From positions 49,538,001 to 49,602,000 of the forward strand of contig CM097885.1 of the NCBI GenBank assembly GCA_044892525.1: a stretch of DNA of 64,000 nucleotides, given 5' to 3'. Positions 1 to 21,400 of this stretch are shown here, one piece after another. The DNA comes from Schmidtea polychroa (taxonomy: Eukaryota). The notes beneath the pieces were generated by a model. That model saw only the letters and a list, made by a program, of their open reading frames with translations, was not told the origin of the DNA and made no database searches. The number at the start of each line of letters is the position of its first letter. Positions within the stretch are counted from its first letter, which is position 1. The position numbers were made by a program, and so were the translations under genes.

Positions 1-105
1 AGGATGATTAGGTGCTGATATACGAATATTCATATCTGCTAAAATATATTATAAATTAACATATTATAAAAAACAAAATTTACCAATTCGGTTTCTTTGT
101 ATCAT
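1..105 (-). CDS. Putative spliced Maverick accessory gene running off the left edge (exon 84-105, intron 39-83, exon <1-38; MIQRNRIADMNIRISAPNHP...)
   Basis: 45-nt GT-AG intron keeps the frame open to the window edge; CCAATCAG box at 213-222 upstream. Start codon uncertain. Confidence 0.4.
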
Positions 106-629
106 TCTCTTGATATCTTTTGAAATGTTCTTCATTGTAAGTTTTGTCTAAAAGTGACGAAAAAATGAAAAACATAGAATATATATCACGTTTATTACAA
201 ACTTTATTCACGATCCAATCAGAATCGAGGAATATATACAACACACATACATACTACTGTGTATCATTTACGCACTCACCGTGTAGGTATGTATATCAAC
301 TACTCACCATGTGCATGAATAATGAGATGTCTTTGTCGTTTAACAAAGACACTACGTGACTATTTCAAAAAGGTAAAACATGACTAGTCATTGTAAATAA
401 CTTGCACATTAATTGCAAATAATAATAATAAGAATATTTATAAATAATAATAATAATAAATTAAAATAAATTTAATTATCAAAATTGTTCATTAATAAGA
501 CGACATTTTTACAATAACATGTATTAAACAAAATTATACATATAATAATAATAATAATATTAATAATAATATTAATAATAACAATCACAACAACAAAGGA
601 AATGATACATTTATTAAACATCAAATTTA

Positions 630-1097
630 TTAAACATCAAATTTTTTGTACAATAACCAAGCTAAACAATGTTGACCACATGTTTGGGTCAATGGATTTT
701 GAAACATAGTTTTATTATACACAATAGGTTTTCCCATTGTTTGTAGTTTTGATATCAACAAAGCTGGGTAATAAAAACCCATAGGATCGAACACGAATAT
801 ATTACCAGGTTTCACGTATATAGCTATCCAATGTTCTCCACCAAGATGAGACGATTGAGTATTGACGATTATTGCTTGATTATTGCTCAAATATGGAATT
901 TTATCAAGAGGAAAAACTCCAACAAATTCATTTCCCAATATCTGTTTTCCGATTTTATTGACCTGAACAGAACTTCTTAAATAAATCCAGAGTATAAAAA
1001 ACAACTTACTCCATGACAACTTTTTGTGTTTCTGTTTACATTTATACCAACACAGTTCTATTTGCAGTAATTTGAACTTCATTTTCAAATACTCCAT
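630..1097 (-). CDS. Adenain-like cysteine maturation protease (Polinton PRO); true start uncertain
   Basis: FVGVFPLDKIP, GEHWIA (His), FDPMG (Asp), FQNPLTQTCGQHC (Gln/Cys) motifs; adjacent to MCP. Confidence 0.88.
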   Translation of the reverse strand: MEYLKMKFKLLQIELCWYKCKQKHKKLSWSKLFFILWIYLRSSVQVNKIGKQILGNEFVGVFPLDKIPYLSNNQAIIVNTQSSHLGGEHWIAIYVKPGNIFVFDPMGFYYPALLISKLQTMGKPIVYNKTMFQNPLTQTCGQHCLAWLLYKKFDV

Positions 1098-2265
1098 ATA
1101 TTATAACATGTACTGGTTCAGTAATAGCTTTTGCAAACTTTATATCCAGTCGTAAATTTCCATTTTGAGGTAATTGACTTTGATTTAAATCAAAATCAGG
1201 GGCTAAAACAAATGTAAAAAATGGGTATTTGCTTTTAAAATCTTCTAGAGTTATTCCGCAATTCAAATTTTTATCTAAATAACCCAGATTTCTAACAATA
1301 CTCTGCATATATGTTGCACAGTAATTGTCATTCTCGAAATCTTGAATATATGTTTCTCTATAATCAGTATTTTTCGACAAAGTCAATGATGTAACACCAA
1401 AGTTTTTGAAAATTGAGCTGGACGCAGTATATGATCCATTATATTGTGCTTCACTTTGAAATGTTATCAGAATAAAATTAGGCATTCTTCTGTCACCAAA
1501 TATTTGTTCTTTATAGAATGATGAAGCACCTTTAGCAATAGCAAATTGTACAATTTCCTTTGTTTTTAATGGATAAATTGCATGTTTTGAATTAAGACCT
1601 AATTGATGACCTGCTAATACTGAGGGGTCTACTCGTACTCTTCTCACCAATAATTTTGCATCAACTAATTGACATATTGGTGTAGTAGTTGCACTAGTAA
1701 GAGATAATGCAGAATCAGACCTTTTCAGTCTAATATGTACATTAACTCCCGGTAGTAAATATTTTGGTTGATCCATAAAATCAAGTTGTAATGATGAGCA
1801 CATGGTGTAAACCTTTGAGCCTTTAACCCACTTTTTTCTTTCATCATCTGCTGCTGCATAACCCATAGGAGTAAGGCATGTATTTTTAGTATCGGAATTG
1901 TAATTTAAAATAGTTTCTATTAATGCCTTGTGAATGAATGTATTATTTCCGCCCTCAATCTTGATATTATTAAATCCCAACACTGCATCTTTAAACAGAG
2001 TATGAAACAGGAAATTGTTCGGTATTACATCTGCATTGGCATCCAAAACTTTTCTATCTTTATCTACAACCTTAATCTGAACAGTCAATAAAGTATCGTT
2101 CAAATCTAAATATTCAGTTTGCGAACCATTAATATAAAACTCGATATCATTTCTACTATCTGTAATTGAATTCATAGGAAAAACTTCCTCAAATGCCCCA
2201 AATTCTATTACAGCCTGGGGCGACGGTCTCTCAAATATACATAATTCAGATTTACCACAAATCAT
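1042..2265 (-). CDS. Major capsid protein (double jelly-roll; Polinton PY/hexon-like)
   Basis: 407-aa intact ORF with typical N-terminus SELCIFE..PQ..IEFYING..EYLDLNDTLL; located between core gene and protease. Confidence 0.85.
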   Translation of the reverse strand: MICGKSELCIFERPSPQAVIEFGAFEEVFPMNSITDSRNDIEFYINGSQTEYLDLNDTLLTVQIKVVDKDRKVLDANADVIPNNFLFHTLFKDAVLGFNNIKIEGGNNTFIHKALIETILNYNSDTKNTCLTPMGYAAADDERKKWVKGSKVYTMCSSLQLDFMDQPKYLLPGVNVHIRLKRSDSALSLTSATTTPICQLVDAKLLVRRVRVDPSVLAGHQLGLNSKHAIYPLKTKEIVQFAIAKGASSFYKEQIFGDRRMPNFILITFQSEAQYNGSYTASSSIFKNFGVTSLTLSKNTDYRETYIQDFENDNYCATYMQSIVRNLGYLDKNLNCGITLEDFKSKYPFFTFVLAPDFDLNQSQLPQNGNLRLDIKFAKAITEPVHVIIYGVFENEVQITANRTVLV

Positions 2266-2630
2266 TTTGCAAATATAGTTCCATGTCCTTTCATTCGTTT
2301 GTTTATACGTGATATTCCATGTCTTTTACGTTTTGGAACAGGAGCTGGAGCTGGAGATTTTTCTTTTTGAAACATACCTGCAACCCCTGGTAAAACTTTC
2401 CCTAATTCAGCTAAAGCATTTGTTTTTAGAGATGGTAATATTTTCTGTTCATTCATAATAACGTCTTTTGCAGTTTTCATACCAAAACTACCAATACGTT
2501 TAAGAATAGGCAATGCAAATCTACCAATTGTTCTCAACCATCCCGATCCGTACTGTTTACCAATAAAATATGGTAATTCGCCACCAGATTGGCTACCACT
2601 ATACATACTAATAATATCAGAATTTGCCAT
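2262..2630 (-). CDS. Small basic virion core/cement-like protein
   Basis: QSGG and QYGSGWLRTIGRFALPILK motifs, C-terminal KRKRH basic patch; ATGA overlap with MCP start. Confidence 0.6.
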   Translation of the reverse strand: MANSDIISMYSGSQSGGELPYFIGKQYGSGWLRTIGRFALPILKRIGSFGMKTAKDVIMNEQKILPSLKTNALAELGKVLPGVAGMFQKEKSPAPAPVPKRKRHGISRINKRMKGHGTIFAK

Positions 2631-3690
2631 CTACTTTACGAAAATGTAATGTCAAATGAGTTTTTGAACCTTTTGGAAAGTTTATAAGTTTTCCACTATC
2701 ATCACGAATATTTATTTCTATATTGTTTATACATGAACTTGCTATTGGTAAATACATGGGATTATCGATATTTATATTGACAACTTCATCATGTTCATAT
2801 TTGCCAATCCATACCGATTTCAAAAGAGGAACACTGGAATCACCAACAATTATGGGTTCGATAATGTTAGTATATATGAACATTTGTTGATGATGTTCTA
2901 GTATTCTTGGTTTGCGTATACCAGTCGATTTTTCTCGATATTTTTGCTTATCTAATCCAAGTGAATTTGCCAAATTTTTATCAAATGTAACTTCGCAAAT
3001 ATCATCATTCAAACTGAAGGTAAACATCAAATCTTTCACAATTTCCAAATTTTTAAATATGTGTGAACAATTGAACTTTAAATATTTAAGTAAATTATCA
3101 AGTTTATCAAAATATAATTCATCAGCAAAGGTAAATGATTCTTCAACTTCATCATTATACGACACAGATATTTTGATTTCTTCTTTCATTACACTGTTTG
3201 CTTCAAATAGATTAAAACGTAATAAATACTCGGTCTCCGTAACAATATTTTTCAACTTATTGCAACCCATTCGTTTGGCATCTTCAATAGTTTCGAATGT
3301 TATTGTAAATGGTTTAAAATCACAACTGATATTTAATCCATCCTTGTAAAACATATAGCAATGCGAATCTAATATTTGATTCGGAATATGATATGTTTTA
3401 TCATAATTACTGATAACAAAGATACCGCTACATGTTTTCACAATATTCCTTTTGAAATCAATCTTACATTGACTATAAAATGGGAATGTGTTGTACACGA
3501 ATGTAAAATCTTGCAGTGCAACTTCCCAATCCCCATTTAAAGAAATCGGATTCTGGAGATTGACCATGAATTTACTGGCTTGATTGTCTGGATGAATTAA
3601 TGGGCAACTATTGCTCGGCAAAATAGTATAAAAATTCACTTTACTAGGTCTTTTGCTGATATCCATGACGGGTTTTGATAACCATGCCAT
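2617..3690 (-). CDS. Minor capsid protein (penton, Polinton PX-like); start probably near 3639-3666
   Basis: NFYTILPSN N-terminal motif, W.VAL..F, C-terminal FIYTNIIEPIIVGDS.VPLL and THLTLHFRK motifs. Confidence 0.8.
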   Translation of the reverse strand: MAWLSKPVMDISKRPSKVNFYTILPSNSCPLIHPDNQASKFMVNLQNPISLNGDWEVALQDFTFVYNTFPFYSQCKIDFKRNIVKTCSGIFVISNYDKTYHIPNQILDSHCYMFYKDGLNISCDFKPFTITFETIEDAKRMGCNKLKNIVTETEYLLRFNLFEANSVMKEEIKISVSYNDEVEESFTFADELYFDKLDNLLKYLKFNCSHIFKNLEIVKDLMFTFSLNDDICEVTFDKNLANSLGLDKQKYREKSTGIRKPRILEHHQQMFIYTNIIEPIIVGDSSVPLLKSVWIGKYEHDEVVNINIDNPMYLPIASSCINNIEINIRDDSGKLINFPKGSKTHLTLHFRKVDGKF

Positions 3691-4811
3691 TTGACATAGT
3701 ATTGTTTATCCTTACCGACCTTTTTAGTTTTCAATATTTTTTGAATTCTAAATACTTTTGGGGGAGGAATGACTTGTAATTCCTGCTCATAAAATTTCCC
3801 CTGTACAATATTATTATCATTGTCTTTGATGACATACATTACAGGATTCTGTTTAGTATTTATTTTTGAAATTACAAAGACTTCATCACTCCAATTTGTA
3901 TCAAAATTTTTAATAAATGGTGATGCACTAATTTTACTAATTCTAACATGGTCACCGACTTTATATTTAGGTTTTGCAATTTTTACAGATTTCTTAGAAG
4001 TCAATGATGTTTTTGATGTAATATCAACCGGTCTCAATCCATTCAGTCCTCGATGTGATGAATGATTATAACTTGTTATTATTTTCGGTAAAGCATTTAC
4101 CCATTTTTTATTACCTTGATGCACGAACAATTTCTTTAATCTATCTCTCAATGTTCGATTAAATCTTTCAACATGGGCAGCTTTGTATTGAGAATGTACC
4201 GAGTAGTGATTTATTTTCAGTTTATCGAGGATTTGCTTAACTTTGCTATTGNNNNNNNNNNNNNNNNNNNNNNNNNNNNNNNNNNNNNNNNNNNNNNNNN
4301 NNNNNNNNNNNNNNNNNNNNNNNNNNNNNNNNNNNNNNNNNNNNNNNNNNNNNNNNNNNNNNNNNNNNNNNNNNNNNNNNNNNNNNNNNNNNNNNNNNNN
4401 NNNNNNNNNNNNNNNNNNNNNNNNNNNNNNNNNNNNNNNNNTATTAGGATGTCCATCTTTAAATAAAATATTAATTGCCTTGGACATTTCTTCTGCAGAT
4501 TTTGCCTTGACTGGTATTGCTCGTGCAAACCTGCTGTATACATTAATACATGTTAAAATATATTTATTCCCATTGTTAATTTTCGAATAAGGTATCATCT
4601 CCATCAAATCCATTTGCCATAAATCGTCAATACCGAATGTTTTATACGCTCTTGTTGGAAATCTTTTCCGCATTGGTTTGTTCAAACTGTACGCAAGCTG
4701 ATCTGATAACCACTTCTGGGTTTCTTTTTTCGAATTCGGAACTCTTTTGTTTAATTTTGCCACTCCACCGAAACCGGCTTCGTCTTCTGGGTTCGTCCAA
4801 ATCTTCTCCAT
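3636..4811 (-). CDS. Retroviral-like (rve) integrase with C-terminal chromodomain; interrupted by N gap 4252-4441
   Basis: LWQMDL, YILTCINVYSRFA, AAHVERFNRTL; YKVGDHVRIS; chromodomain IQKIL...YYVKWHGY..PSWI. Likely start ATG at 4811 (MEKIW). Confidence 0.92.
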   Translation of the reverse strand: MEKIWTNPEDEAGFGGVAKLNKRVPNSKKETQKWLSDQLAYSLNKPMRKRFPTRAYKTFGIDDLWQMDLMEMIPYSKINNGNKYILTCINVYSRFARAIPVKAKSAEEMSKAINILFKDGHPNXXXXXXXXXXXXXXXXXXXXXXXXXXXXXXXXXXXXXXXXXXXXXXXXXXXXXXXXXXXXXXXXNSKVKQILDKLKINHYSVHSQYKAAHVERFNRTLRDRLKKLFVHQGNKKWVNALPKIITSYNHSSHRGLNGLRPVDITSKTSLTSKKSVKIAKPKYKVGDHVRISKISASPFIKNFDTNWSDEVFVISKINTKQNPVMYVIKDNDNNIVQGKFYEQELQVIPPPKVFRIQKILKTKKVGKDKQYYVKWHGYQNPSWISAKDLVK

Positions 4812-4872
4812 TACAACAAGAAGATTTAAAATTAAATTTAATGTCGGGCAATGAAGGATTAGCACCCATTGT

Positions 4873-5406
4873 TTATGTTTGATTTCCTACAACTCCACCT
4901 AATAAGGATAATGCCAGAGGTATTAATGCACCAATAAATCCACCTTGTTGTTTATATATAATTTTCCTCATTTGCTTACGATTTTTATTATTTACTAAAG
5001 ATAATAATGGTTTCCTATGTTTGCTCAATAAATGCTTTTTTGATTTACTGATTTTAATTTTGCCTTTGACTACTTTAAGTATAATATTAAGTAAATCATC
5101 GACAACAAAATTTGGGAATGATTGCAATATATTCATTCTTTTCATACTCGGGGCCTTTAACAATGCATTAAAAAATGGAAAACTGCGATGATTTTTAACT
5201 ACTTTTTTACTAGTTTTACGGGTTTTACGGGTTTTACGTTTAGGTTTAGGATTTTTAGAAATAAGATTCATTGCAGAGAAATTTTCAGTTACAAGTTTTT
5301 TAGATGGTGTATAACTAGTTGTTGGTGGAACTATTGGAACTTTAATAGTCTTTCTAATACCTTTTCTTAATTTCTTAATATTTTTCACCCTTGCTTTTAG
5401 AAACAT
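4873..5406 (-). CDS. Lys-rich basic protein with C-terminal QQGGFIGALIPLALSLLGG segment (conserved Polinton-type virion protein, function inferred)
   Basis: 177-aa intact ORF between integrase and ATPase; very basic N-half, GG motif followed by hydrophobic/amphipathic tail. Confidence 0.6.
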   Translation of the reverse strand: MFLKARVKNIKKLRKGIRKTIKVPIVPPTTSYTPSKKLVTENFSAMNLISKNPKPKRKTRKTRKTSKKVVKNHRSFPFFNALLKAPSMKRMNILQSFPNFVVDDLLNIILKVVKGKIKISKSKKHLLSKHRKPLLSLVNNKNRKQMRKIIYKQQGGFIGALIPLALSLLGGVVGNQT

Positions 5407-5427
5407 TATTATTATTCGTAGAGGTTT

Positions 5428-6054
5428 TCAACTTTGTTTATAAACCATGGCACCTTTTGGGTTGAAAATATCTGTTTTTACACGTAAATCATCGGGACAT
5501 TGTTGTGTGAAATCAAGAAATATATATCCATGAGGTATTTTTGTAGCATTTTGAAATGCACTGATAAGAAATTTACGATTGTTAGGGTATGCTTGACGTG
5601 CAAGAAAATCAATCACTGTTGCATCTCTAGGATTCTTGAAAATAACTAAATATTGTACATTTAAATTACGTGTTCGATGTGCCCCACCTTGATGAAATAG
5701 ATTTTGTGTTATGAAAATAACTGTTACACCGACATGTCTGCTGATCTTTGTAAATAAATTATTAAAATCTTTTTCTTTATTAGCTTCTTGATACAAATCA
5801 TCGATAATAATGACATCACCTTTCTTTAATCGGCTGGACCAGTTTTTATCGAATCCCTTTACTATTTTCATGTTTTTTAATTTACAGAAACTTGATTGAG
5901 TTAATCCATGTTCTTCATCAGCACCCCTATGCCAATAAATCCTGTTGAATTTTGATTTGAATAAATTTGATTTTAGTAATTTACAAACAAATAATGTTTT
6001 TCCACTACCACTCGGACCAACGATTTGGTATACTGCATCATTTCTTAATTCCAT
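5428..6054 (-). CDS. DNA packaging ATPase (A32/FtsK-HerA family)
   Basis: Walker A GPSGSGKT, Walker B IIIDD, SRH motif, IFITQN motif. Confidence 0.92.
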   Translation of the reverse strand: MELRNDAVYQIVGPSGSGKTLFVCKLLKSNLFKSKFNRIYWHRGADEEHGLTQSSFCKLKNMKIVKGFDKNWSSRLKKGDVIIIDDLYQEANKEKDFNNLFTKISRHVGVTVIFITQNLFHQGGAHRTRNLNVQYLVIFKNPRDATVIDFLARQAYPNNRKFLISAFQNATKIPHGYIFLDFTQQCPDDLRVKTDIFNPKGAMVYKQS

Positions 6055-6153
6055 TTCAAAAATTTTATATATGTATATTTGTTTATATTCAATGATTTAA
6101 TGAACTCGTGCTCAATTTGTATATAAAGACTAATTTTCATAAATGATTTAATA

Positions 6154-6591
6154 ATGTTAGCAAATATAAATTATCGAGGAAATTTTGATGTATCGAATAT
6201 GAGGTTCCCACCAGGGAAACCCCAGCAAATTATCGATAGAAGCGGGAAATATCCGATAATATTTTTCAAGACTGGTAAATGTCGAATCATGGGATGTAAG
6301 AAACCTTTGGATATTAATAAATTACAATATCGAATAAATAATATTATAATCCAATCAATTACCGTTACTATGGATATGGGACATAGTATCAATCTATATA
6401 ATATGTCGAAAAAATGTGATTGTATGTTTGAACCGGAATTGTTTCCGGCACTAAGACTATTAAAATATAACCCTATATGTGTCAATGTGTTTGCTAGTGG
6501 AAAGGTTGTCATGCTTGGGTTGAGAAATTTGGAGTATAGAGAATTTGTTGACAATGTTCGAAATGAGATAATTTCATTGGTTGATTTCTAA
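6154..6591 (+). CDS. TATA-binding protein (TBP)-like protein, element-encoded
   Basis: Both TBP half-repeats recognisable: IIFFKTGKCRIMG (cf. LIFSSGKMVCTG); IQSITVTMDMGHSINL, FEPELFPAL and VNVFASGKVVMLG (cf. IQNMVGSCD, YEPELFPGL, LIFVSGKVVLTG). Confidence 0.85.
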   Translation: MLANINYRGNFDVSNMRFPPGKPQQIIDRSGKYPIIFFKTGKCRIMGCKKPLDINKLQYRINNIIIQSITVTMDMGHSINLYNMSKKCDCMFEPELFPALRLLKYNPICVNVFASGKVVMLGLRNLEYREFVDNVRNEIISLVDF

Positions 6592-6672
6592 TTGGTTAAT
6601 TTCTTATTGGTTATTGATTGATTTAAACAAACTGTTTATTGTTTAGAAATCATTTATTCAAAAAAAAAAAAA

Positions 6673-7080
6673 ATGTACAAAATTCCAAGTGCAGCTCGTT
6701 TAATTAAAGAAATAGATGATTATGGTAAATTTTTTATTTTTTGTTTACAAATTTAAATATTATATTTTTCAGAAGAATATGCTGCAGTCATGCTAAAGAA
6801 GTTAGCATTCTATTATCCAGAAATCAATGCAGCAGTATACAACAAGCCTGCAGAATTAATCCCCGATTTGGTGTTCAATGCGACGGGGATATGGATGTTC
6901 GAAATTTTCCATCAATTTATGTGGGATGTGAAGATAAATCGAACAATTAAACATATGGATCCAGAATATTTATGTTACAATAGCTGTTCCTGCTGCAAAG
7001 CTAGATATCAGCGATATGTAGAATGGGTTTTGGTTAAAACTCTTCGTGATTTCCACCATATCAAGAACTTTGTGCATTAA
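6673..7080 (+). CDS. Hypothetical spliced accessory protein, 119 aa (exons 6673-6724, 6773-7080), Cys cluster CYNSCSCC
   Basis: 48-nt GT-AG intron 6725-6772 joins MYKIPSAARLIKEIDDY-E in frame to the 6790 ORF. Confidence 0.7.
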
Positions 7081-7414
7081 ATGTTTTTAACAAATAAATG
7101 TTANNNNNNNNNNNNNNNNNNNNNNNNNNNNNNNNNNNNNNNNNNNNNNNNNNNNNNNNNNNNNNNNNNNNNNNNNNNNNNNNNNNNNNNNNNNNNNNNN
7201 NNNNNNNNNNNNNNNNNNNNNNNNNNNNNNNNNNNNNNNNNNNNNNNNNNNNNNNNNNTATAACAAAACATGTAATAATTAAAACATTAATAGTAAAAAA
7301 CATTAATAATAAAACACATAAATAATAAATCTGTAAATAGAACATATAACAAAACATGTGACAATGCAACATCAATGCATTTTGAATGCAATTTAAACAA
7401 AGACATATTGAAAT

Positions 7415-7450
7415 CTGATTGGATGATAGACACGAGTCGAAGGTATAAAA
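7415..7450 (+). promoter_or_regulatory. Reverse CCAAT box (CTGATTGGAT) plus TATA box (TATAAAA 7444-7450)
   Basis: Canonical spacing 35 nt upstream of ATG 7485. Confidence 0.6.
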
Positions 7451-7484
7451 ACCCTGTACCATTTCATTTTAATCATTATTCACG

Positions 7485-7898
7485 ATGACCAAGAAAATTT
7501 CAGGCACCGAAAAACCGAAAGAAGAACTTGTACAACCGGTTCAAATGTTCCACAACTACAAAATGTATTTTTTAAAAGAAGAAATCAATATGAAATTGGT
7601 TGCACCGGTCAAGCTAATTCCAACTCAATTTCAATTTTTATCCGGCACGCTTTCAATGATAGATGTTAAAACTATTGATGATGTTTTCAAACGGTTAAAT
7701 TCAAATCTAGCATGTAATCAACATGCATGGTTCAACAATAGATATGCAAGATTTTATGATTCTTTTGATGAAATCAGTTTCAAAGAAAACGAAAATTGGT
7801 ATATAACAATTGCAATCCAGGGATATAAAGTTGATAATAATGATGTGTATTCTCCTATTTGGAAAATTATGTCTGCTAGACTTTCACAGCTATTTTAA
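7485..7898 (+). CDS. Hypothetical protein, possibly OB-fold ssDNA-binding protein
   Basis: 137-aa intact ORF with own promoter; C-terminal pattern ITIAIQGYKV...SPIWKI resembles viral SSB beta-strands (weak). Confidence 0.55.
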   Translation: MTKKISGTEKPKEELVQPVQMFHNYKMYFLKEEINMKLVAPVKLIPTQFQFLSGTLSMIDVKTIDDVFKRLNSNLACNQHAWFNNRYARFYDSFDEISFKENENWYITIAIQGYKVDNNDVYSPIWKIMSARLSQLF

Positions 7899-8047
7899 TG
7901 TTCTATTTAATGTATTTAATAAATGTATTAGTCATATTTGTTTTTCTCTTTATTAACAAAGAAATTGCAACATTAATGCAAATGACATGCAAATTTAACA
8001 AAGAAAATCTATAAACAAACTTACAATATAGTTTTAAAGTGATAAAA

Positions 8048-8431
8048 ATGACTGCGGAAAAAGGTTAACATGATTAATTAATTAATTACCGAATTATTTG
8101 TTATTATTTAGAATTTGTAATCAACTTTTTGTTGGAAAAATTAGCAGAAATAGCTGGTGTAAAAATTGAGGACATATTATCTGTAACAAATGCATTAAAT
8201 ATCGGCTGGGTAGTTGAGAGTCAAGATTCAGGATTTGATGATCAGGAAGAAGAAACTCAAGAAACTGATACTCAAGAAATTGATGAGGAAATATATGAAC
8301 CCATAGATGAACCTATAGATGAACCTATAGATGAACCTAAAGATACGGAAAATATTACGAATGATTGTATTGATCATGTTGTTGAAAATGTAATGAAATG
8401 TGGAGATGACGATTGTGAATGTGTTAATTAA
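8048..8431 (+). CDS. Acidic spliced accessory protein (exons 8048-8063, 8112-8431) with DEPI repeats and Cys/Asp tail
   Basis: 48-nt intron 8064-8111 gives MTAEKEFVINFLLEK... in frame with the track ORF at 8129. Confidence 0.7.
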
Positions 8432-8500
8432 TAAATTTTAGTTAATTATTTCTTATACTTTCTTATATATTTATTTAAAAAATAAAACAACATAACTATA

Positions 8501-9027
8501 TCAATTTTTATTTAAGAATCTAGAAATTACATAGAAAATAGCGACACCTGTTGAAAATTTAATAAAGTTTTTAAATCTTCTTTTATACTGATCGATTTCC
8601 TTAGCATTTCGGGCGAGTTTTTTCAATGTACCCCATCCGCCATTGGCTTCTATCCATGGAGTAAATTTAGATTTGATTATCTAAAAAATCAATATTATTA
8701 AAATATAGATTATAAAAGTATTACTTCTTGAGACCATTGATAATAGTGTTGTGAGTCCCATGAACTTTTTTCAATTATAATCTTCATATAAGTGAACCCT
8801 ACAATTATTCGGGTCCACTTCATTTCGTCATCGAATAGACAATTGAATATTCTATTGAAGTAGAACTTCTTCGTCTCCAGACACTCCATATCCAGCATGT
8901 TTTGGTAATCAATATGATTCCCCTCGATGATTTCTTCAGTACGATTAATTAGGTAACTGAGGCTTTCCGTAATGCCTGTATTGACGACCTCATTTAACAA
9001 GTTGTCGATAAAATTAGTTTGCGACAT
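8501..9027 (-). CDS. Bcl-2 family protein, 160 aa, spliced (exons 8725-9027, 8501-8680)
   Basis: BH1-like CLFDDEMKWTRIIVGFTY; after 44-nt intron 8681-8724, BH2-like PWIEANGGWGTL and C-terminal anchor FIKFSTGVAIFYVISRFLNKN. Confidence 0.85.
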
Positions 9028-9633
9028 TTCTACAGTAATTTAAAATATGATGTTTTATTTATACTACTACAGAAGTGTGTGCAATATGATTCTGATTGGT
9101 TAATAGACTATAAATGTAAAATATATATGAGTTTTGATTTGATACAACATGAAAACTATATTTCTATTGCTAATTATTATTATTATTATAACGAGTGTGT
9201 GCTCACACAATACAACAATAACAGTGGAGTCTTTTAACAAATCAATATGTGTTTGTCCAAATACCGCCATTAAAATGATTGTAAATTAGGAGCAGTTGTA
9301 GTAATTGTTTGATTATGCACATGGATTGAAGGGTCTTTGTTAATATTGCATTAAAACTGCATTGTCTTTGTTAATATTACTTTCAATTTGTTAACAATAT
9401 TATTACGTTGCGGTAGTTTAGACTATTGAACAACATATTGAATTACCTTTAGAATGATACCTATATTATATAGTTTTTAAAATGTTGAAGGTTTTTGACC
9501 TTTTGAAAGTTAAGGATACATCTTAAACCTTCAAGGGTATGACCATTAGATAGAGCTCTTCAAGACCTTTCGAATGATACCCATGAAGTTTGACATCATT
9601 TGACCCTTTTTAAATTTGAATTTAAAATTGAAA

Positions 9634-9882
9634 TGAGTCACCCTTAATGTGTCATGCGCGATGACTCATTAGGATGAGTCATGTGTGGTGAGTCACCCGG
9701 ATGAGTCACCAGTATGAGTCATCAGATGAGTCATGTGTGATGAGTCACCAGGATGAGTCACCAGGATGATGAGTCATCGATGACGTCATTTATGACTCAC
9801 CGGGGGTGGGGGGTGGGGTATGAGTCATGTTCTTTGTTATGAGTCATCGATGAGTCATATGTCTTTGTTCAACGATGAGTCA
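9634..9882. promoter_or_regulatory. Array of 15 perfect AP-1 heptamers (TGA(G/C)TCA), one CRE (TGACGTCA 9781-9788) and a G-tract (9802-9818) in the element's terminal region
   Basis: Sites start at 9634, 9662, 9675, 9689, 9702, 9715, 9727, 9741, 9754, 9770, 9793, 9821, 9840, 9851, 9876. Confidence 0.8.
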
Positions 9883-10909
9883 TGCAGCGCACTTGTACCT
9901 ACTAACGAGATATATTTCGATACTGCATAATATCATTAGTCATTATTTTTTCGGATTCCTTCTATTTCTCTTTATATGCCATATAATTTATTTCAAATAT
10001 TTTTAAATAACCACAAAAATAACAAAATGTATATATTATTATAACAACCTTTTCGTAAAAAAAATTTTTAAATTAATGAAAGTTTAATGTTGTGTTTAAA
10101 ATAACATAAAATGTAAGATTTTTTAACCTTTACAAAATTTTTAATTTTCATAGAGTAATTGCTGACTATAAACATATTACTTTATTCTAGTTTCGTAAAT
10201 TTAAGATCCTGATATACAAATGTAGAAAAGAAAACATACAAATTATTTTAATAACTAAACTACACATTGGTCGAAAGTGGCCATTAAAGTCCATTAGAGT
10301 CCACGAAAATTTTAAAAAATTTTTTATTTATAAATATTTTTTCCATTAATTTTGCTAAAAAGCTACATTTTATATGACGGAGTTCAGTAAAAATATATAT
10401 GCAATTTTGTCCATAAATTTTGTTTCGAATAACTTGTTTATGTTTAAATTTGAATATTTTTCTTTTAATTTGATATATATTTTCCGAAAAAACCTTAAAA
10501 CAAATCATTTGCTAATTCATCATTAAATATATTTTCATTTTAATTTCTATTGTAAATTGTTATTTCAATTTCCCTTTACAGTCGTCTCAAGTTGCAGATC
10601 TCGCGTTGAAATCTCCACTTGTAGAATGATTTATTTCATTCTCATTCTACTGCAATAATGAGCAATAGTTAATTAAACAAAAATTTTCTTTTATTTTTAT
10701 TGTGCTCAGAAAATGAGATTATATATAATATATAATATTTACTAAAAAATTGACTATGAATCAATAAAGATATCGATGTTTTTTGAAATTCACGAATTTT
10801 CAGCACAGCCTTTTTCAATTGATGTTTTCAAGTAATGATGAATAAAATTCATAGTTAATTTTTTAATAACTAAAATGTCAAATGAAAAGAAATCAAAGGT
10901 GAAAATTAA

Positions 10910-11990
10910 AAGAACTTGATGGTATTGCTAAAGGTTCCAAATTGGATCCAACAATGACATTTATTTTCAATGTCAAGTTTAGAAAAGAAAATTTCATCAA
11001 ACAATTTAACTAAACCAACTGTTCTAAAGGTATTGTTGATGATATTTTTTAGTGTTTGAGAATCGTCAGCATGTTTAGAAAAGAAAATTTCATCAAACAA
11101 TTTAACTAAACCAACTGTTCTAAAAGTATTGTTGATGATATTTTTTTAGTGTTTGAGAATCGTCAGCATGTAAGGCGTTTCTTAGATTCTATGATTTGCA
11201 TTTGTACATGTGAAGAACAAAAAAATGTCTATGATACCGTTTTTGAATTTGTTTATCCACCTGAAGGAAAAATACTATCAGATTGAAATATATAGAAAAG
11301 TGACTGATACTGGTCTTTATACTATTCCTGAGAGCTTTTATCAATTCAGTGAAAAGTATTGATTCTCTGGTTGTGTTGCTTCTTAAAAATGGATATTCTA
11401 AATCTTTTCTTGACGCATGACAAAAGAAACAGTTGATAAATGGATGTTGAACACTCATGATCCTTTCATGATCCTGTTGATGTTAAAGTTAATATGTTGT
11501 TAAGTTCGGAAGGTGAAAAAATTTGATCTATGCACACTGATCAAAAATCATGTTGGTATTATCTTATTCTGAAGATTTCACAAAATTCAAATGTACGATC
11601 CTTAAACATGTAGATAAGACTATATTTCGGGATGTTTCAACGTTTTGCAAGGTTAATAGCAAGTTCACCAATAAGTCTCTAACTCCAGTTTGTCTCTGTT
11701 CAGAACTCGTGAAGCAATTTTCATGGAATGGGTGTAATGTCACATACATTGGAGAGACTGCCCGTCATCTCTGCACTCGAGTTCTTGAGCATCGCCGACA
11801 GAATTGATTGATTCACATTAGTAATCATTTTAGGAAGTGTACCAGTAAAATAATAAGTATTTCTAATTGTAAGATCTTGTCAAAGAGTTTGAGTAATTGA
11901 TGGGAACGAGTATCGTGCGAGGTGTTGCTGATTAGATCTTTAAATACTATAATTAATATTCAAAGTGTTTATGAAATTTTTAAATTTAAA
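10910..11990 (+). mobile_element. Degenerate Penelope-like retroelement (RT fragment plus GIY-YIG endonuclease), with internal ~120-bp tandem duplication
   Basis: Degenerate YVDD region duplicated at ~10975-11170; QFSWNGCNVTYIGETARHLCTRVLEH GIY-YIG motif at ~11710-11800. Confidence 0.75.
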
Positions 11991-15400: not shown

Positions 15401-18400
15401 TTTAGAATTGCCAGTAATTATATTATAAAAAAACATTCGTTTGCAATTTCATATTTGTTGAGAAAAATATTTGAATAATTTTGATATATGTACACGATCA
15501 AAACTTTCTAATTTTAAATATTTTTTTTCTTTTTAGAAATGAGATTAATTTATATTTTCTATTTATTTTAAGATTGGTTCCTTTTTTATGATCAATTTGT
15601 GTTTGGTCGTTATTGCTAGCCAGTTTTCTGAAACAAAACGCCGAGAAACCGAACGTATGTGGATTGAAAGAAGAAGGTTTAATTCAAGCAATTGCTCCTC
15701 GGTTTCTAAAGACGAACCTCAAACATGTTATTTGGAAATAATCAAATTGATCACTCAAATGATTTGCAAAGTTTATAGACGAATTGTCAAATTATATCAT
15801 CTATTACAAATGCGACAGTCTAAAACTGCTCAAGACAATTATCAAAACACACTCAAAAAGCGTAGGAAACATTGTAGAAAACATTCTCAAAGTCAATTTC
15901 CCATTGATGAACATTGTCATCTTTATTCTATTGTCAATACAATTAGCGGTGATAAACAACACTATTATGCCATAAATAAATATCCTAGTAATTTTTCAAA
16001 TATTCCACCAAAGGCCAGTCCAGAATTATCTGTGATTGATGAACTCAATTCTCCTAGACATCCTAATCATCTTGTTTCTGACATCTCATCAAAATCTGTC
16101 TCTACAGAAACAAAACGAAAATCTCAATATAATTCCCAAATTTTATTAGATATTCCTTCCACCCCAGCTAATCATTCGTCTACTCGAGATAACTATCGGT
16201 GGGAATTAACAAAAAATAATCCTTTATTAACTTCCAAAGATAAAATCTACACTCAATCAGTTGCGAGTAGATCATCGTCTATCAACAGTTGTGCATATCA
16301 AATTCCTCAATTAATAGAAAATTCTAGTCGACATCGTAAACCCTTTGACAAAAAACAAGATAAACCGCAGAGAAAAAGTAATTTGATTAAATTTTCATCA
16401 ACTTGAATTGTGTCTAAAATTTAAATGAATTTTAAAAAATTAATATGTTTTTTAAAATTATTAAATATTTATTTTTAAATTTTAATTTTTCAAATTATCA
16501 GTTGACTCTAAAATTTGGTTTTTTCATAGAATTATTGACAATGTTTATTAAAAATCAAATAATAATACTAAATTGTTTAGTATGAAATTTCCGTTTTAGT
16601 GGTTAAATAAAAAACCTATATATGGCAATTAGAATTTAAGAGTACCTTGACTCAGGGTGTAAGTTATTGGTCAACAAATCTTTCTGATTATGTCAACTAG
16701 GACATTGGGAAAAATTATATTAGTTTTAATCTTTAGCTACTAGAAAAGATCAGAAAATGTCAGACTTAAAAAATTATTTTTTATCAGAGACGAACATCAA
16801 GCAAAGATTTCTAAGGAGAAAAGAAGTGAAATCGCTTAAATTTATTGACAGCGATGAAAATAATTTAGATTTATAGTAATTTTATAAATATTTAGAACAT
16901 AAAGTTATAGAACATTGACTTTCTTCAACCTTCTTCCGCCTAACTCTCACTTTCGATAGATAAAAAAATTATTTACCGCACTAAATCCACATTCGACGAA
17001 ATAAGATATTGGAAAATGATTTTCGAAGCTTTTGAAGCTCCTTTGTTACCAAATGAAATTGAACAGGAAATTATTTATAGTCACAATATTGATGAAAAGT
17101 TAAAATCGATATATTGTCATTACATAATTTTTCTTTGCACTATTTTNNNNNNNNNNNNNNNNNNNNNNNNNNNNNNNNNNNNNNNNNNNNNNNNNNNNNN
17201 NNNNNNNNNNNNNNNNNNNNNNNNNNNNNNNNNNNNNNNNNNNNNNNNNNNNNNNNNNNNNNNNNNNNNNNNNNNNNNNNNNNNNNNNNNNNNNNNNNNN
17301 NNNNNNNNNNNNNNNNNNNNNNNNNNNNNNNNNNNNNNNNNNNTAAGCCTTTTGCTGCAAATAATGTATTTAATGAAAGAATTTTCGACTATACGATAGT
17401 CCTTGTCAATTGACAAGATTGACAAGGACTATCGTATAGTCGAAAATTCTTTCATTAAATACATTATTTGCAGCAAAAGGCTTAAATTATCATTTTATTG
17501 TTTTAAATAATAAATGCTGCNNNNNNNNNNNNNNNNNNNNNNNNNNNNNNNNNNNNNNNNNNNNNNNNNNNNNNNNNNNNNNNNNNNNNNNNNNNNNNNN
17601 NNNNNNNNNNNNNNNNNNNNNNNNNNNNNNNNNNNNNNNNNNNNNNNNNNNNNNNNNNNNNNNNNNNNNNNNNNNNNNNNNNNNNNNNNNNNNNNNNNNN
17701 NNNNNNNNNNNNNNNNNNNNNNNNNNNNNNNNNNNAAAAGCGTTTTTAGTTTACAATAATGGAATTTGTAAATTATCATAAAATATTAGAATATCACTAA
17801 TGAAATATGCATTATTCTAAACAAAATAATAGTTAACAGATGAGTTTTTGTTTTAATATATTAATAGAAAATTATTTCTGTTAAATTATTTATTATTTAT
17901 TAGAGATGAAGAAGTTTTAATCATCATTTAAATTTCTCTCAATGGCATTCATGATTTTAAAATAAAATTTCGAAAAACCTTTAATTATTTTTATTTATTA
18001 TTATTTAAATTTATTATTATTATTAAAAATTATTATTATTTCAAAAATTCTAAAATAATTTAGAAAAGATGTTATATTAGTTTTAAATATTACATTTGTT
18101 TTAATTACTTAATCTAATGATTTTTTAATTTTAAATAAACGAATCGTATAAGTCATTATATATTCTGAATGGTCACGAAGAGGTCATTATATATGCATTG
18201 ATAATAATAAAAAACAAATACTAAATAACTCGGAAAAAGTTAATATCTATTTATATTTGTATAAAAAACTTTAAACGTTAGATAAATTGACATCATTTTA
18301 TAACAGATCATCTGATATTAGAATGATTGCTAATTTATTCCCCAAATATATCTTAATATGGAGACGGAAAGAATGAGCCAGAAATATTAGAAGAGAATGT

Positions 18401-21400
18401 TGAAAACAGAAAAATACATGTTTCCCTTTTAGATTATCACTTTGTGAAAAATGTGCGTTGAAACATGTAAATCCACAATAGAAGGGCATTAAAAATATAT
18501 AAGTATTTAGTAAATTTTGTTTTACTGTAAAACATGAAGATATCTTACGAATTATAACAAATGGTTAGTTAAATCAACAGAAAGTTACAAACACCAAAAT
18601 AGACAATACAAATAAGTAACGGAACCGACATAAAATGTGATAATATCAGTTAATCAAAAGAAACAAATTGCAATCAGTTTTTGGACTTAAGCCATTTGAA
18701 ATGATTCTTTTTGATGTAGTGGGACCATGAGTAATGTTTTTATTTCAAGGAGCTCAGTACATGTAAATAAAATAGCATGAGAATTATGATACGTTTAATA
18801 AGTTAATTTGGAGTATTAGGAACATTTCATTCCGGCAATGGAATCAATTTCAAGTCGGAGTTATTCAAAGAATTGTGAAAAGTAAAGGAACACCAAACGA
18901 TAACATGTGCAAGATATATAAAATATTTCAACAAAGATTAGTAACGAAATGTGATGACATTGTATATAACATTTTAAGTTTTAAATAAATTTTAAATAAA
19001 ATATCAAAAAACCATTAAAATTAAAGTATAAAGTGATGATTTCTTGGTAGCAGCCTTTATTATTTAAAACAATTAAGTGATAATTTATGCCTTTTGCTGC
19101 GAATAATGTATTTAATGAAAATATTTTCGACTATAAGATAGTCCTTGTCGAAAATCCTAGTCGAAATATTTTTCATTAAATACATTATTCGCAGAAAAAG
19201 GCTTAACTTATCACTTAATTGCATTAAAAATAAATTATAATAAGTTATAAAAAACTTTCAAATTTTAATCTGGCCATTAAACAATTTAATTCATTTAAAC
19301 TATTTACTATAAATTTGAAACAATGAATATTTGTAATTTAGAAATATTTTAAAAATAAAATTTTCTATTTCTATTACATTTTAGTGGAGTCAAAATTTGG
19401 TTCTGTCTGCATGAAAGAAATTATTATAGAATTTTTTGATACATTTGTTTTTTTAGAATAATTTATTAAAAAGCATTTAAATCGAAAGTGTTAATTAAAT
19501 TTAAAAATTTCCAACTTTTCTTGAGATAACTTTTTAAAAATATTTTTATTTTAGATTTATAAAAAAATTCAAAAAATATCAAAATTATTGAAATATATTT
19601 GAAGAAAATGATCCTAATCATTTTAATTTGTGTCAATTACTATAAAAAGAAACTAATAATGATGTAATAATTATCATTTAAAGAATTAATTAAATAATTT
19701 TAATAAATTCAATTCGGCTTAGAACGCACTATTAATTTTTCTATCCATAAATTGCACTTTAACTGTTAAAGGGCAATTGTTGTATATATAGAACCAAAAC
19801 ATACACTGTGTACTGCGCATAATACAGAAACTAGAAATATTTGGTCAACTGCAAACTTGCTACATCCATACAGCAGCATCTATTTTTATCCCCAAGCTCC
19901 TCTTGTCATTATAAAATTACTTTTTTTCGTAGAAAAAATATTCTTGTAGTTATAAATACGTGTGTAAAATTTTATAAATAGAAATGTTCATCTGTAAGCT
20001 TATCAAACAAATGCTTACTCATCGCATTTAGTGAAAATTCAGCTTCAGTTCAAGTACGGAAGCCCAAAATGCATAAAACGTTTGTACTTTGTAGATTGTT
20101 GGGACAGGTTTTCCACTAAACAGTAATGTTTGGTATGAAACTTGTCCTAATAACTTATGAACTTGCTTAATGCATTTTTGACTAATTAAATAGCAAAATA
20201 AAAATGAAATGACGTTATTCGGTAAAGGATTATCGTCCGTACAGGGTAAAGTTAAATAAGTTCTGTTAAATGGATACTATATCATTTGTATTTTTATATG
20301 ACAAAAGATCACAAATTTGTGTTAAAAAAAGATTTTGATTTTTTGTCATAGTAGAATTAAATGAAATATCAATAAAAGAAAAAAGTGCAAAGGTGACCAA
20401 AAAGATAAAACATCATATTATTGTCACTACTTTGTCATTATTTAATAACTCATTTTCAATCGGAAATGCGTTTAAAGGTTTTCCTATCAAAAGGCGAACG
20501 ACATTAGAAAGCGGTCTAATTAAAGTCGATTGTTAAAAAGNNNNNNNNNNNNNNNNNNNNNNNNNNNNNNNNNNNNNNNNNNNNNNNNNNNNNNNNNNNN
20601 NNNNNNNNNNNNNNNNNNNNNNNNNNNNNNNNNNNNNNNNNNNNNNNNNNNNNNNNNNNNNNNNNNNNNNNNNNNNNNNNNNNTAATTTCTTAACGGTTA
20701 TACATTTTGATCATAAAAATTATTAATGGATATAGATGGAGGATATGGAAATGCACTCAGTATTACGCTGTCAAATATAAGTTATGGTGTCATAGTAAAG
20801 ATGGAATTCTTACGAACGACTAAGTCATATTACAGATCGAGCAAATGCCTGAATTCTAGTAAATAATAAATACAGTTAAAGAGAAAACATTGTCAAGTAA
20901 TCTGAAATAATACTGTGGTGAGGTGAAAACTATCCATCCTTAACAAACATCAAACAGCCAATTCGAAGAGTATAACATGTTCATCAGAAACCTTTGCCAA
21001 CTTCACCAACATTTTAGCAATCTAACTTGGCCTATTGAGTGGACAAAAACAGTTTCACAGCATTTGGTAGGGCATAGCCGATTGTCATTTCACCGCCGAT
21101 TCCGAATTCCGGATTTTGGAATTTGGAATTTGCCGATTCCCCGACGATCCAACGTCGTAAATGGGTGGTCTCTTATACTCTCATAGATCTATCCGTGTAG
21201 CACATACCAGTAGTAGATTCATAGACCTAGCAACTTATTACATCTGTGTATTAATATTCATCGCCTCGCGAGAAATGGAGATAACGAGATTGTAGCAATG
21301 AAAAACTAAAATTGATATCTTGTCAATGTCAGGTATTTCTTATTTTTTAATACTTTTACTTTTTTATAGATATTTTTATGTTCCATTTTAATTGTTAAAA

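What the first reader, a model, noticed from the sequence alone, without database searches (positions are those of the whole stretch)
9634..9882. Dense phased AP-1/CRE array in the terminal region
15 perfect TGA(G/C)TCA sites and a TGACGTCA lie in ~250 bp, mostly 12-16 bp apart. The spacers vary while the heptamer stays fixed, which points to selection on the motif. It could be a stress-responsive enhancer or a bZIP-bound replication origin. If it is part of the TIR, a mirror copy exists at the other end.
Basis: partly seen in the sequence, partly recalled or inferred. Interest (0 to 1): 0.8.

Follow-up and report, generated by a model that had tools for sequence, protein, structure and literature searches.

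The report
AP-1 site array at Polinton end
The tip of a virus-like Polinton element in an invertebrate genome carries 16 tightly packed binding sites for the host's stress- and wound-activated AP-1/CREB factors, probably a host-controlled on-switch for the element's genes, though binding and activity have not been shown.

Summary
Observation confirmed: 15 TGA(G/C)TCA sites and 1 TGACGTCA in 9634-9882, against 4 such sites in the other ~62 kb. All 16 fit the extended R-core-Y AP-1 pattern. The array sits 21-270 bp inside the right end (..CTACT, 9903) of an intact-looking Polinton/Maverick: integrase, ATPase, adenain protease, double-jelly-roll capsid, SSB, TBP-like gene, and a two-exon Bcl-2-like gene 570 bp away. 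It grew by tandem duplication of a ~13-bp unit. Cores are far better conserved than spacers (3 of 22 edits in core positions, p about 1e-5), and most core variants (G/C centre, CRE, R/Y flanks) keep bZIP binding. 'Phased' means a 13.4-bp repeat register, not helical phasing. Best reading: a host-bZIP enhancer at the terminus, like the ATF/Sp1 sites of adenovirus ITRs and the CRE/TRE clusters of baculovirus hrs, possibly also helping the origin. Not shown: binding, activity, host species, the left-end mirror copy, or conservation in other copies. One distant Polinton end has other repeats and no AP-1 sites. New variant of a known kind.

The parts
9633..9883 (.). Array of 17 contiguous units (11-28 bp, mostly ~13): 15 RTGASTCAY AP-1 sites, 1 CRE (9781), 1 one-mismatch core (9648)
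9884..9903 (-). Terminal ~20 bp of the Polinton; reads 5'-AGTAGG.. from the end, a one-base variant of the (AGT)2 end motif. Presumed core origin and integrase attachment site (inferred)
   Evidence: GC falls from 0.44-0.54 to 0.14-0.24 past 9900; L001 ends ..ACTACT; end motifs from PMC8097293 passages
9904..9909 (+). Predicted 6-bp target-site duplication (AACGAG); the left copy cannot be checked
   Evidence: 6-bp TSD from PMC8097293 passages
9802..9818 (+). G-rich spacer with two GT boxes (Sp/KLF-type, label recalled); contains the GGGGGTGG given as the Sp1 motif of adenovirus ITRs
   Evidence: 2 here, 0 in the rest of the window; PMC2685984 passage
9832..9869 (+). Two CTTTGTT (SOX/TCF-like, label recalled) in the long spacers; two more at 9335 and 9366
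   Evidence: 4 in 604 bp, 0.21 expected; post-hoc motif, weak
9445..9608 (.). Second, looser module: 7 ACCTT/AAGGT-type words, with one 20-bp repeat 120 bp apart; nuclear-receptor-like by recall, unexplained
   Evidence: (7 against 0.22 expected; pattern chosen after viewing)
9278..9441 (.). Third module: SOX/HMG-like WWCAAW cluster
   Evidence: 11 against 3.25 expected, p 6e-4 uncorrected
9056..9099 (-). TATA box (9063-9056) and CCAAT box (9099-9095) upstream of the Bcl-2-like gene, 570 bp from the array
   Evidence: consensus matches only
8501..9027 (-). Two-exon Bcl-2-like gene (exon 1 9027-8725, 44-bp GT-AG intron, exon 2 8680-8501) with BH1-like, BH2 and C-terminal hydrophobic segments; first gene inside the right end
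   Evidence: Pfam Bcl-2 E=2e-4 for exon 1 and E=0.33 at profile positions 86-100 for exon 2; exon 2 best PDB hit Bcl-xL E=0.0086; 3 homologues, identity ends at the donor site
7485..7898 (+). T7 gp2.5/Enc34-type single-stranded DNA-binding protein (probable)
   Evidence: model pLDDT 91; top 4 VIA rows Z 7.0-7.4, three of them named SSBs; Foldseek E=0.084
6154..6591 (+). TBP-like gene
   Evidence: Pfam TBP E=6.8e-15; homologue in L001
5428..6054 (-). A32-like packaging ATPase
   Evidence: Pfam Pox_A32 E=2.8e-7
4873..5406 (-). Basic protein in the position of PW (label recalled)
   Evidence: weak match to the syntenic L001 gene
3636..4811 (-). rve integrase with C-terminal chromodomain
   Evidence: Pfam rve, rve_3, Chromo, all below curated cut-offs; 49-58% identical to L001/L002
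2262..3690 (-). Probable minor capsid protein (2617-3690) and PZ-like gene (2262-2630); labels from synteny and recall
1042..2265 (-). Double-jelly-roll major capsid protein
   Evidence: model pLDDT 89.7; Foldseek E=3e-16 to iridovirus and 3e-15 to PBCV-1 capsid; 172 homologues
630..1097 (-). Adenain-type protease
   Evidence: Pfam Peptidase_C5 E=4.8e-6

Best explanation
The array is a cis-regulatory module of the Polinton itself. A ~13-bp unit carrying an optimal AP-1 site was amplified by tandem duplication just inside the element's end (shown: repeat structure, position). Selection kept the cores and let spacers drift (shown statistically). The selecting agent is most likely host Jun/Fos/ATF-type bZIP dimers (inferred from the motif and its tolerated variants). 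When JNK/ERK-type stress signalling activates them, they would load the array, open the chromatin of the integrated copy and act as a strong enhancer on the nearby TATA promoters, first the Bcl-2-like gene 570 bp inward, then the SSB, TBP-like and other accessory genes (inferred). That would couple the start of the element's cycle to stressed or proliferating cells while delaying their death (speculative). If the array is inside the TIR, as its position suggests, the same module acts from both ends and may also help initiation at the protein-primed origin.
For: Position 21-270 bp from an AG-type terminus, within the 46-1,447 bp TIR range reported for vertebrate Mavericks (PMC8097293 passage). 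16 of 16 sites have a purine before and a pyrimidine after the core. On a minimum spanning tree of 13 regular units: 19 spacer edits against 3 in invariant core positions, binomial p=1e-5. Neutral duplication simulations at comparable divergence kept >=11 of 13 cores in 0 of 1066, 0 of 1437 and 0 of 1498 qualifying runs, and 3 of 91 at low divergence. Three of four kinds of core substitution are bZIP-tolerated (p 0.005-0.02), and the single core indel turns AP-1 into CRE. No AP-1/CRE site in 1-9600. Pol II-type promoter and an intron in the neighbouring gene. Precedents: ATF and Sp1 motifs in adenovirus ITRs (PMC2685984 passage); CRE/TRE counts track enhancer strength of baculovirus hrs (PMC13513840 passages); AP-1 motifs are required in regeneration-responsive enhancers (PMC10232395 passages).
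Against: No binding, chromatin or expression data. One copy only, so conservation across family members is unknown. The one distant relative with a readable end (L001) has 0 AP-1/CRE sites in its terminal 850 bp, so the feature is not general. The simulation ignores indels and palindrome-driven homogenisation; 4 of 17 units with long spacers were left out; the motif was spotted before it was tested. Host taxon not established (empty), so 'wounding' is an assumption. The left half of the element, which might encode its own DNA-binding protein, is not in the window.
Confidence: 0.6

Rival explanations
1. Mainly an auxiliary replication origin: host bZIP dimers bound next to the ~20-bp terminal core help the terminal-protein/polymerase complex load or keep the end free of nucleosomes, as NFI and Oct-1 do for adenovirus. 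Not exclusive of the enhancer role.
For: The outermost site starts 21 bp from the end. Adenovirus ITR Sp1/ATF motifs are reported to aid replication, and both motifs occur here (PMC2685984 passage). The element carries a probable SSB. Baculovirus hrs are both origin and enhancer.
Against: L001 has a normal terminus with unrelated repeats, so initiation does not need AP-1 in this group. Sixteen sites over 250 bp looks like a homotypic enhancer rather than one or two positioned helper sites (inference). No helical phasing.
Confidence: 0.15
2. The cores are bound by an element-encoded protein (integrase, packaging or terminal protein, or a viral bZIP mimic), like the sub-terminal repeats of cut-and-paste transposons, and the match to AP-1 is incidental or mimicry.
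For: Fixed motif with variable spacers near a terminus is the classic layout of transposase-binding repeats (recalled). L001 also has sub-terminal repeats with a recurring palindromic word. Two accessory ORFs remain unassigned.
Against: No bZIP family hit among 13 element ORFs or parts or the further ones; the ORF at 7485 looks like an SSB. The tolerated variants, including the AP-1 to CRE spacing change, follow the bZIP code.
Confidence: 0.1
3. A neutral minisatellite: slippage and template switching between quasi-palindromic cores during strand-displacement replication multiply and homogenise the cores without selection for protein binding.
For: Clear 13/27/52-bp duplications. The strand folds better than shuffles (z=-3.4), so inter-unit pairing is possible. 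Terminal repeats of other sequence exist in L001.
Against: Core and spacer divergence differ strongly. Homogenisation does not explain why the variants are the bZIP-permitted ones.
Confidence: 0.08
4. The array is not the Polinton's: it is a separate small repeat inserted beside it, or was shaped by the host as an enhancer for the calcium-channel gene in whose intron the element appears to sit.
For: TIR and TSD symmetry could not be checked. The terminal hexamer differs by one base from (AGT)2.
Against: The GC step and ..CTACT end lie immediately outside the array, as in L001. No second copy of the array or its flanks elsewhere in the window. Open reading frames and capsid identity of 98-99.5% to four full-length database proteins indicate a young insertion with no time for host remodelling (inference).
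Confidence: 0.07

Closest known systems
Polinton/Maverick (adintovirus) terminal regions
   Same: Integrase, ATPase, adenain protease, double-jelly-roll capsid, AG-type end; Bcl-2 and TBP-like accessory genes are already reported in this group (PMC8502044 passages); sub-terminal repeats also seen in L001.
   Different: No AP-1/bZIP array at a Polinton end turned up in my paper searches, and L001 has none.
Adenovirus inverted terminal repeat
   Same: Protein-primed linear genome end followed by host-factor sites; the ATF (TGACGT) and Sp1 (GGGGGTGG) motifs named in PMC2685984 both occur in the array; a Bcl-2 homologue is encoded (E1B-19K, recalled).
   Different: Adenovirus uses a few single sites (NFI, Oct-1, Sp1, ATF); here there are 15 optimal AP-1 sites in tandem, in an integrating element.
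Baculovirus homologous regions (hrs)
   Same: Repeated viral DNA with clustered CRE/TRE bZIP sites acting as enhancer and origin (PMC13513840 passages; Landais 2006 seen only as a citation there).
   Different: hrs are internal and dispersed in a circular genome, built on 30-bp IE1-bound palindromes, CRE-rich with 0-2 TRE per hr. This array is terminal, TRE-dominated and has no such palindrome.
AP-1-dependent regeneration-responsive enhancers; AP-1 sites in retroviral LTRs and polyomavirus enhancers
   Same: AP-1 as the signal-responsive input (PMC10232395 passages; LTR and polyomavirus cases recalled).
   Different: Those typically carry one to a few sites (recalled); 16 in 250 bp is closer to a synthetic multimerised reporter.

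Membership tests
Polinton/Maverick | Retroviral-like rve integrase | tested here: met
   Pfam rve E=2.4e-5, rve_3, Chromo (below curated cut-offs, parts searched separately); 49-58% identity to the intact L001 and L002 genes
Polinton/Maverick | Packaging ATPase and adenain protease | tested here: met
   Pox_A32 E=2.8e-7 and Peptidase_C5 E=4.8e-6, both above cut-off
Polinton/Maverick | Double-jelly-roll major capsid protein | tested here: met
Polinton/Maverick | Single-jelly-roll minor capsid protein | not tested
   assigned by synteny with L001/L002 only; not folded
Polinton/Maverick | Protein-primed DNA polymerase B | tested here: inconclusive
   no trace in the window with the L001 polymerase-like ORF as query; the element runs off the left edge of the window
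Polinton/Maverick | AG-type terminal motif | tested here: met
   5'-AGTAGG, one base from (AGT)2, at a sharp GC step
Polinton/Maverick | [quoted passage not shown] | not testable with these tools
   left end outside the window
AP-1/bZIP homotypic enhancer | Clustered consensus sites far above chance, with flank preferences | tested here: met
AP-1/bZIP homotypic enhancer | Constraint on the sites relative to spacers | tested here: met
   within one array only; not across copies
AP-1/bZIP homotypic enhancer | Factor binding and position-independent activation of a promoter | not testable with these tools
   needs EMSA/ChIP and reporter assays
Helically phased binding array | Site spacing in multiples of ~10.5 bp | tested here: not met
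   R=0.22 at 10.5 bp, 0.78 at 13.4 bp
Baculovirus hr | ~70-bp repeats with a 30-bp imperfect palindrome, dispersed in a baculovirus genome | tested here: not met
   units are 11-28 bp; longest inverted pair in the array is 23 nt at 78%; gene context is Polinton. It may work like an hr but is not one
Structured RNA family | Rfam match | tested here: not met
   0 matches at E<=1 in 8900-10300

The most novel reading that the evidence does not exclude
The array is a wound/stress switch that wakes an integrated Polinton: host AP-1 loads both TIRs after injury, turns on a captured Bcl-2 and the replication genes, and helps fire the protein-primed origins in proliferating cells. Different Polinton lineages would then carry different host-factor arrays in their TIRs (AP-1 here, another palindromic word in L001), forming a swappable 'host-sensing' cassette that sets when and where each becomes active.
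Probability: 0.3. Interest if true: 0.8.

Novelty: new variant of a known kind. Interest (0 to 1): 0.55.

Why it matters
Polintons are inferred to be viruses from their capsid genes, but what activates integrated animal copies is open (PMC11131425 passages, could not resolve stress dependence and call for experiments). This array names a specific host pathway, target promoter and 250-bp fragment, so the question can be tested with a reporter, ChIP and existing injury RNA/ATAC data. A mobile 16-site AP-1 enhancer could also impose stress-responsiveness on neighbouring host genes, here a Cav3-like channel. The principle of host bZIP sites in viral termini is old; the extreme density and the Polinton setting are what is new.

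Tried and rejected
Mirror copy, second terminus or polymerase inside the window: none. The second Polinton fragment at 61940-62962 (about 70% identical, with stops) has no terminus or array. Related loci: the single genome-contig scan gave 3 loci from 76 candidate stretches, and only L001 reaches a terminus. Phage collection: no match for the capsid. PDB by sequence: no match for the capsid. Host identification through the channel's I-II loop: 0 of 910 candidates. Names for close capsid relatives: none in 8 clusters. Protein atlas: no usable hit for two accessory ORFs. Pfam on 34 members of the 7485 family: only scattered weak rows. Rfam: none. Sigma-70 scan: chance level and irrelevant to a eukaryote. 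Term searches of two supplements for the motif: 0 hits, which is weak because one file was cut when stored and neither is known to hold TIR DNA. PMC9522251 had no occurrence of AP-1, bZIP, jun, Maverick or Polinton. Kapitonov and Jurka 2006 is not held, and Repbase could not be consulted. Helical phasing rejected. RUNX- and ETS-like words in spacers are short, overlap the cores and were chosen after viewing, so they are not counted as evidence. A synthetic reporter contaminant was rejected by inference: irregular spacers and a natural terminus. Viral and metagenomic contig collections stayed unchecked.

Full report
Observation. The window holds 19 TGA(G/C)TCA sites; 15 lie in 9634-9882 together with the only TGACGTCA. 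The other ~62 kb hold 4, and 5000 dinucleotide shuffles of the stretch gave at most 4. Nine of 15 gaps are 12-16 bp. All 16 sites have a purine before the core (15 A, 1 G) and a pyrimidine after it (10 T, 6 C), the extended AP-1 pattern (recalled). With one degenerate core at 9648 the stretch tiles as 17 contiguous units. TRF and the repeat finder show nested 13-, 27- and 52-bp duplications. The register is 13.4 bp (R=0.78), not the helical 10.5 bp (R=0.22).

Context. Positions 630-9027 are a compact gene block: adenain protease, rve integrase with chromodomain, A32-like ATPase and TBP-like protein by Pfam, a double-jelly-roll capsid by fold and a probable gp2.5-type SSB (Z 7.0-7.4, below the range the tool calls clear). 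This is a Polinton/Maverick. The polymerase and left end are not in the window. The first gene inside the right end is a two-exon Bcl-2-like gene transcribed inward from TATA and CCAAT boxes 570 bp from the array. Three database homologues agree up to the predicted donor site and diverge after it. Bcl-2 homologues in adintoviruses are already reported (PMC8502044, passages and section 3.1). To the right lie exons of an ion-transport gene (Cav3-type by recall). The first visible exon is mid-domain, so the element is probably intronic (inference; one search shows no channel-like frame in between by eye). The host species was not established; AT-richness and short introns fit a planarian-like invertebrate, by recall only.

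Terminus. GC is 0.44-0.54 in 9651-9900 and 0.14-0.24 in the 300 bp after; the boundary reads ..CTACT at 9903, 5'-AGTAGG on the minus strand. Vertebrate Mavericks end in (AGT)2//(ACT)2 or (AG)3//(CT)3 with TIRs of 46-1,447 bp and 6-bp TSDs (PMC8097293, passages). One of 3 loci from the genome scan, L001 (capsid 45% identical; a Polinton contig in a bacterial assembly, contamination by inference), has a matching candidate end ..ACTACT about 850 bp after its last ORF, though without a GC drop beyond it. Its sub-terminal region holds 57-63-bp and ~140-bp repeats with a recurring GCGCAT word and no AP-1 or CRE site. So sub-terminal repeats are not unique to this element, whereas the AP-1 content is lineage-specific on a sample of two. 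The array lies 21-270 bp from the end and is probably in the TIR, but that is not shown.

Selection. On a minimum spanning tree of the 13 units with spacers up to 7 bp (4 long-spacer units left out), 19 edits fall in spacers, 3 in the six invariant core positions (one substitution counted twice, one indel) and 3 in the degenerate positions; binomial p=1e-5 against the neutral share. In substitution-only simulations of neutral tandem duplication, runs with at least 8 spacer edits kept 11 or more of 13 cores in 3 of 91, 0 of 1066, 0 of 1437 and 0 of 1498 cases at four rates; the real array keeps 11 plus a CRE. The changes that do occur in the 9-mer are mostly those a bZIP dimer tolerates (p 0.005-0.02), and the single indel converts AP-1 to CRE. 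Limits: one array, motif seen before testing, no model of palindrome-driven homogenisation; the strand does fold better than shuffles (z=-3.4).

Architecture. From the end inward: about 20 bp of terminal core; the AP-1/CRE array with a GT-box spacer and two CTTTGTT words; a module of 7 ACCTT-type words; a SOX-like cluster; then the Bcl-2-like promoter. The inner modules were found post hoc and are leads only. No AP-1 or CRE site occurs in 1-9600.

Mechanism. Most likely (0.6) host Jun/Fos/ATF dimers bind the array and enhance the element's Pol II promoters under stress or proliferation signals, starting with the anti-apoptotic gene. An origin-helper role (0.15) is compatible with this. Binding by an element protein (0.1), a neutral minisatellite (0.08) and a non-Polinton or host-shaped origin (0.07) are less likely, for the reasons listed under rivals. 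Shown: motif, position, constraint, neighbouring genes. Inferred: the binding protein, the target and the trigger.

Comparison. Adenovirus ITRs carry NFI, Oct-1, Sp1 and ATF sites that aid replication (PMC2685984, passages), and the Sp1 and ATF words given there both occur here. Baculovirus hrs carry CRE/TRE clusters whose number correlates with enhancer strength (PMC13513840, passages). AP-1 motifs are needed in tested regeneration enhancers (PMC10232395, passages). The array may work like these but is not an hr. Searches for a report on Polinton termini: 0 papers; 0 papers; listings only, none on the point by title or abstract start. Further passages read: PMC6431247, PMC4028283, bioRxiv 10.1101/2023.08.22.554363, PMC11131425, PMC9522251. 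Subscription papers, Repbase notes and bioRxiv supplements were not visible and could hold a prior description; one supplement searched was cut when stored. Viral and metagenomic contig collections stayed unchecked.

Verdict. A real, strongly non-random feature at a Polinton terminus, a new variant of a known design. Its value is that it makes the trigger of Polinton activation testable. Interest 0.55; 0.8 if the stress-switch reading (probability 0.3) holds.

Noticed in passing
window 61940-62962: Second, degenerate Polinton fragment (capsid, PZ-like and minor-capsid pieces, about 70% DNA identity, with stops) in another intron of the same channel gene; no terminus or array.
   Followed up: yes
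window 29942-36585: hAT-type element (Pfam hAT dimerisation domain) arranged as a near-perfect 2.5-kb inverted duplication around a 1.4-kb centre, with CAGGGATGGC ends and a 105-bp tandem duplication of the right end; fold-back element or assembly artefact.
   Followed up: no
window 8501-9027: The Bcl-2-like protein and its 3 homologues have Thr where the BH1 motif usually has Gly (recalled), and a spliceosomal intron, unusual among mostly intronless Polinton genes.
   Followed up: partly
window 6673-7080 and 8049-8431: Two further accessory genes that appear to contain short introns: one with Cys-rich motifs, one very acidic with 12-bp repeats; no family found.
   Followed up: partly
window 9445-9608: Seven ACCTT/AAGGT-type words against 0.22 expected, just inward of the AP-1 array; possible second factor-binding module.
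   Followed up: partly
L001 11348-12067: A distant Polinton end with 57-63-bp repeats carrying a GCGCAT palindromic word and ~140-bp repeats with TATA-like words; suggests lineage-specific motif arrays at Polinton ends.
   Followed up: partly
L001 136-11215: Near-complete Polinton inside a record titled as a bacterial assembly; same core gene order, but the TBP-like gene lies after the protease and the polymerase-like ORF is upstream and divergent.
   Followed up: partly
window 10943-11900: Fragment of a GIY-YIG/Penelope-like retroelement (label recalled) with a 96-bp tandem duplication; related pieces at 54781-55303 and 27052-27151.
   Followed up: no
window 17344-17484, 19050-19228, 25042, 38916-39028: Family of short palindromic MITE-like repeats (67-nt perfect arms, 7-nt loop).
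   Followed up: no
window 26448-26507 and 63310-63366: Small GC-rich tandem arrays (15-bp unit with a CCAAT word, 4 copies; 14-bp unit, 4 copies) in AT-rich introns.
   Followed up: no
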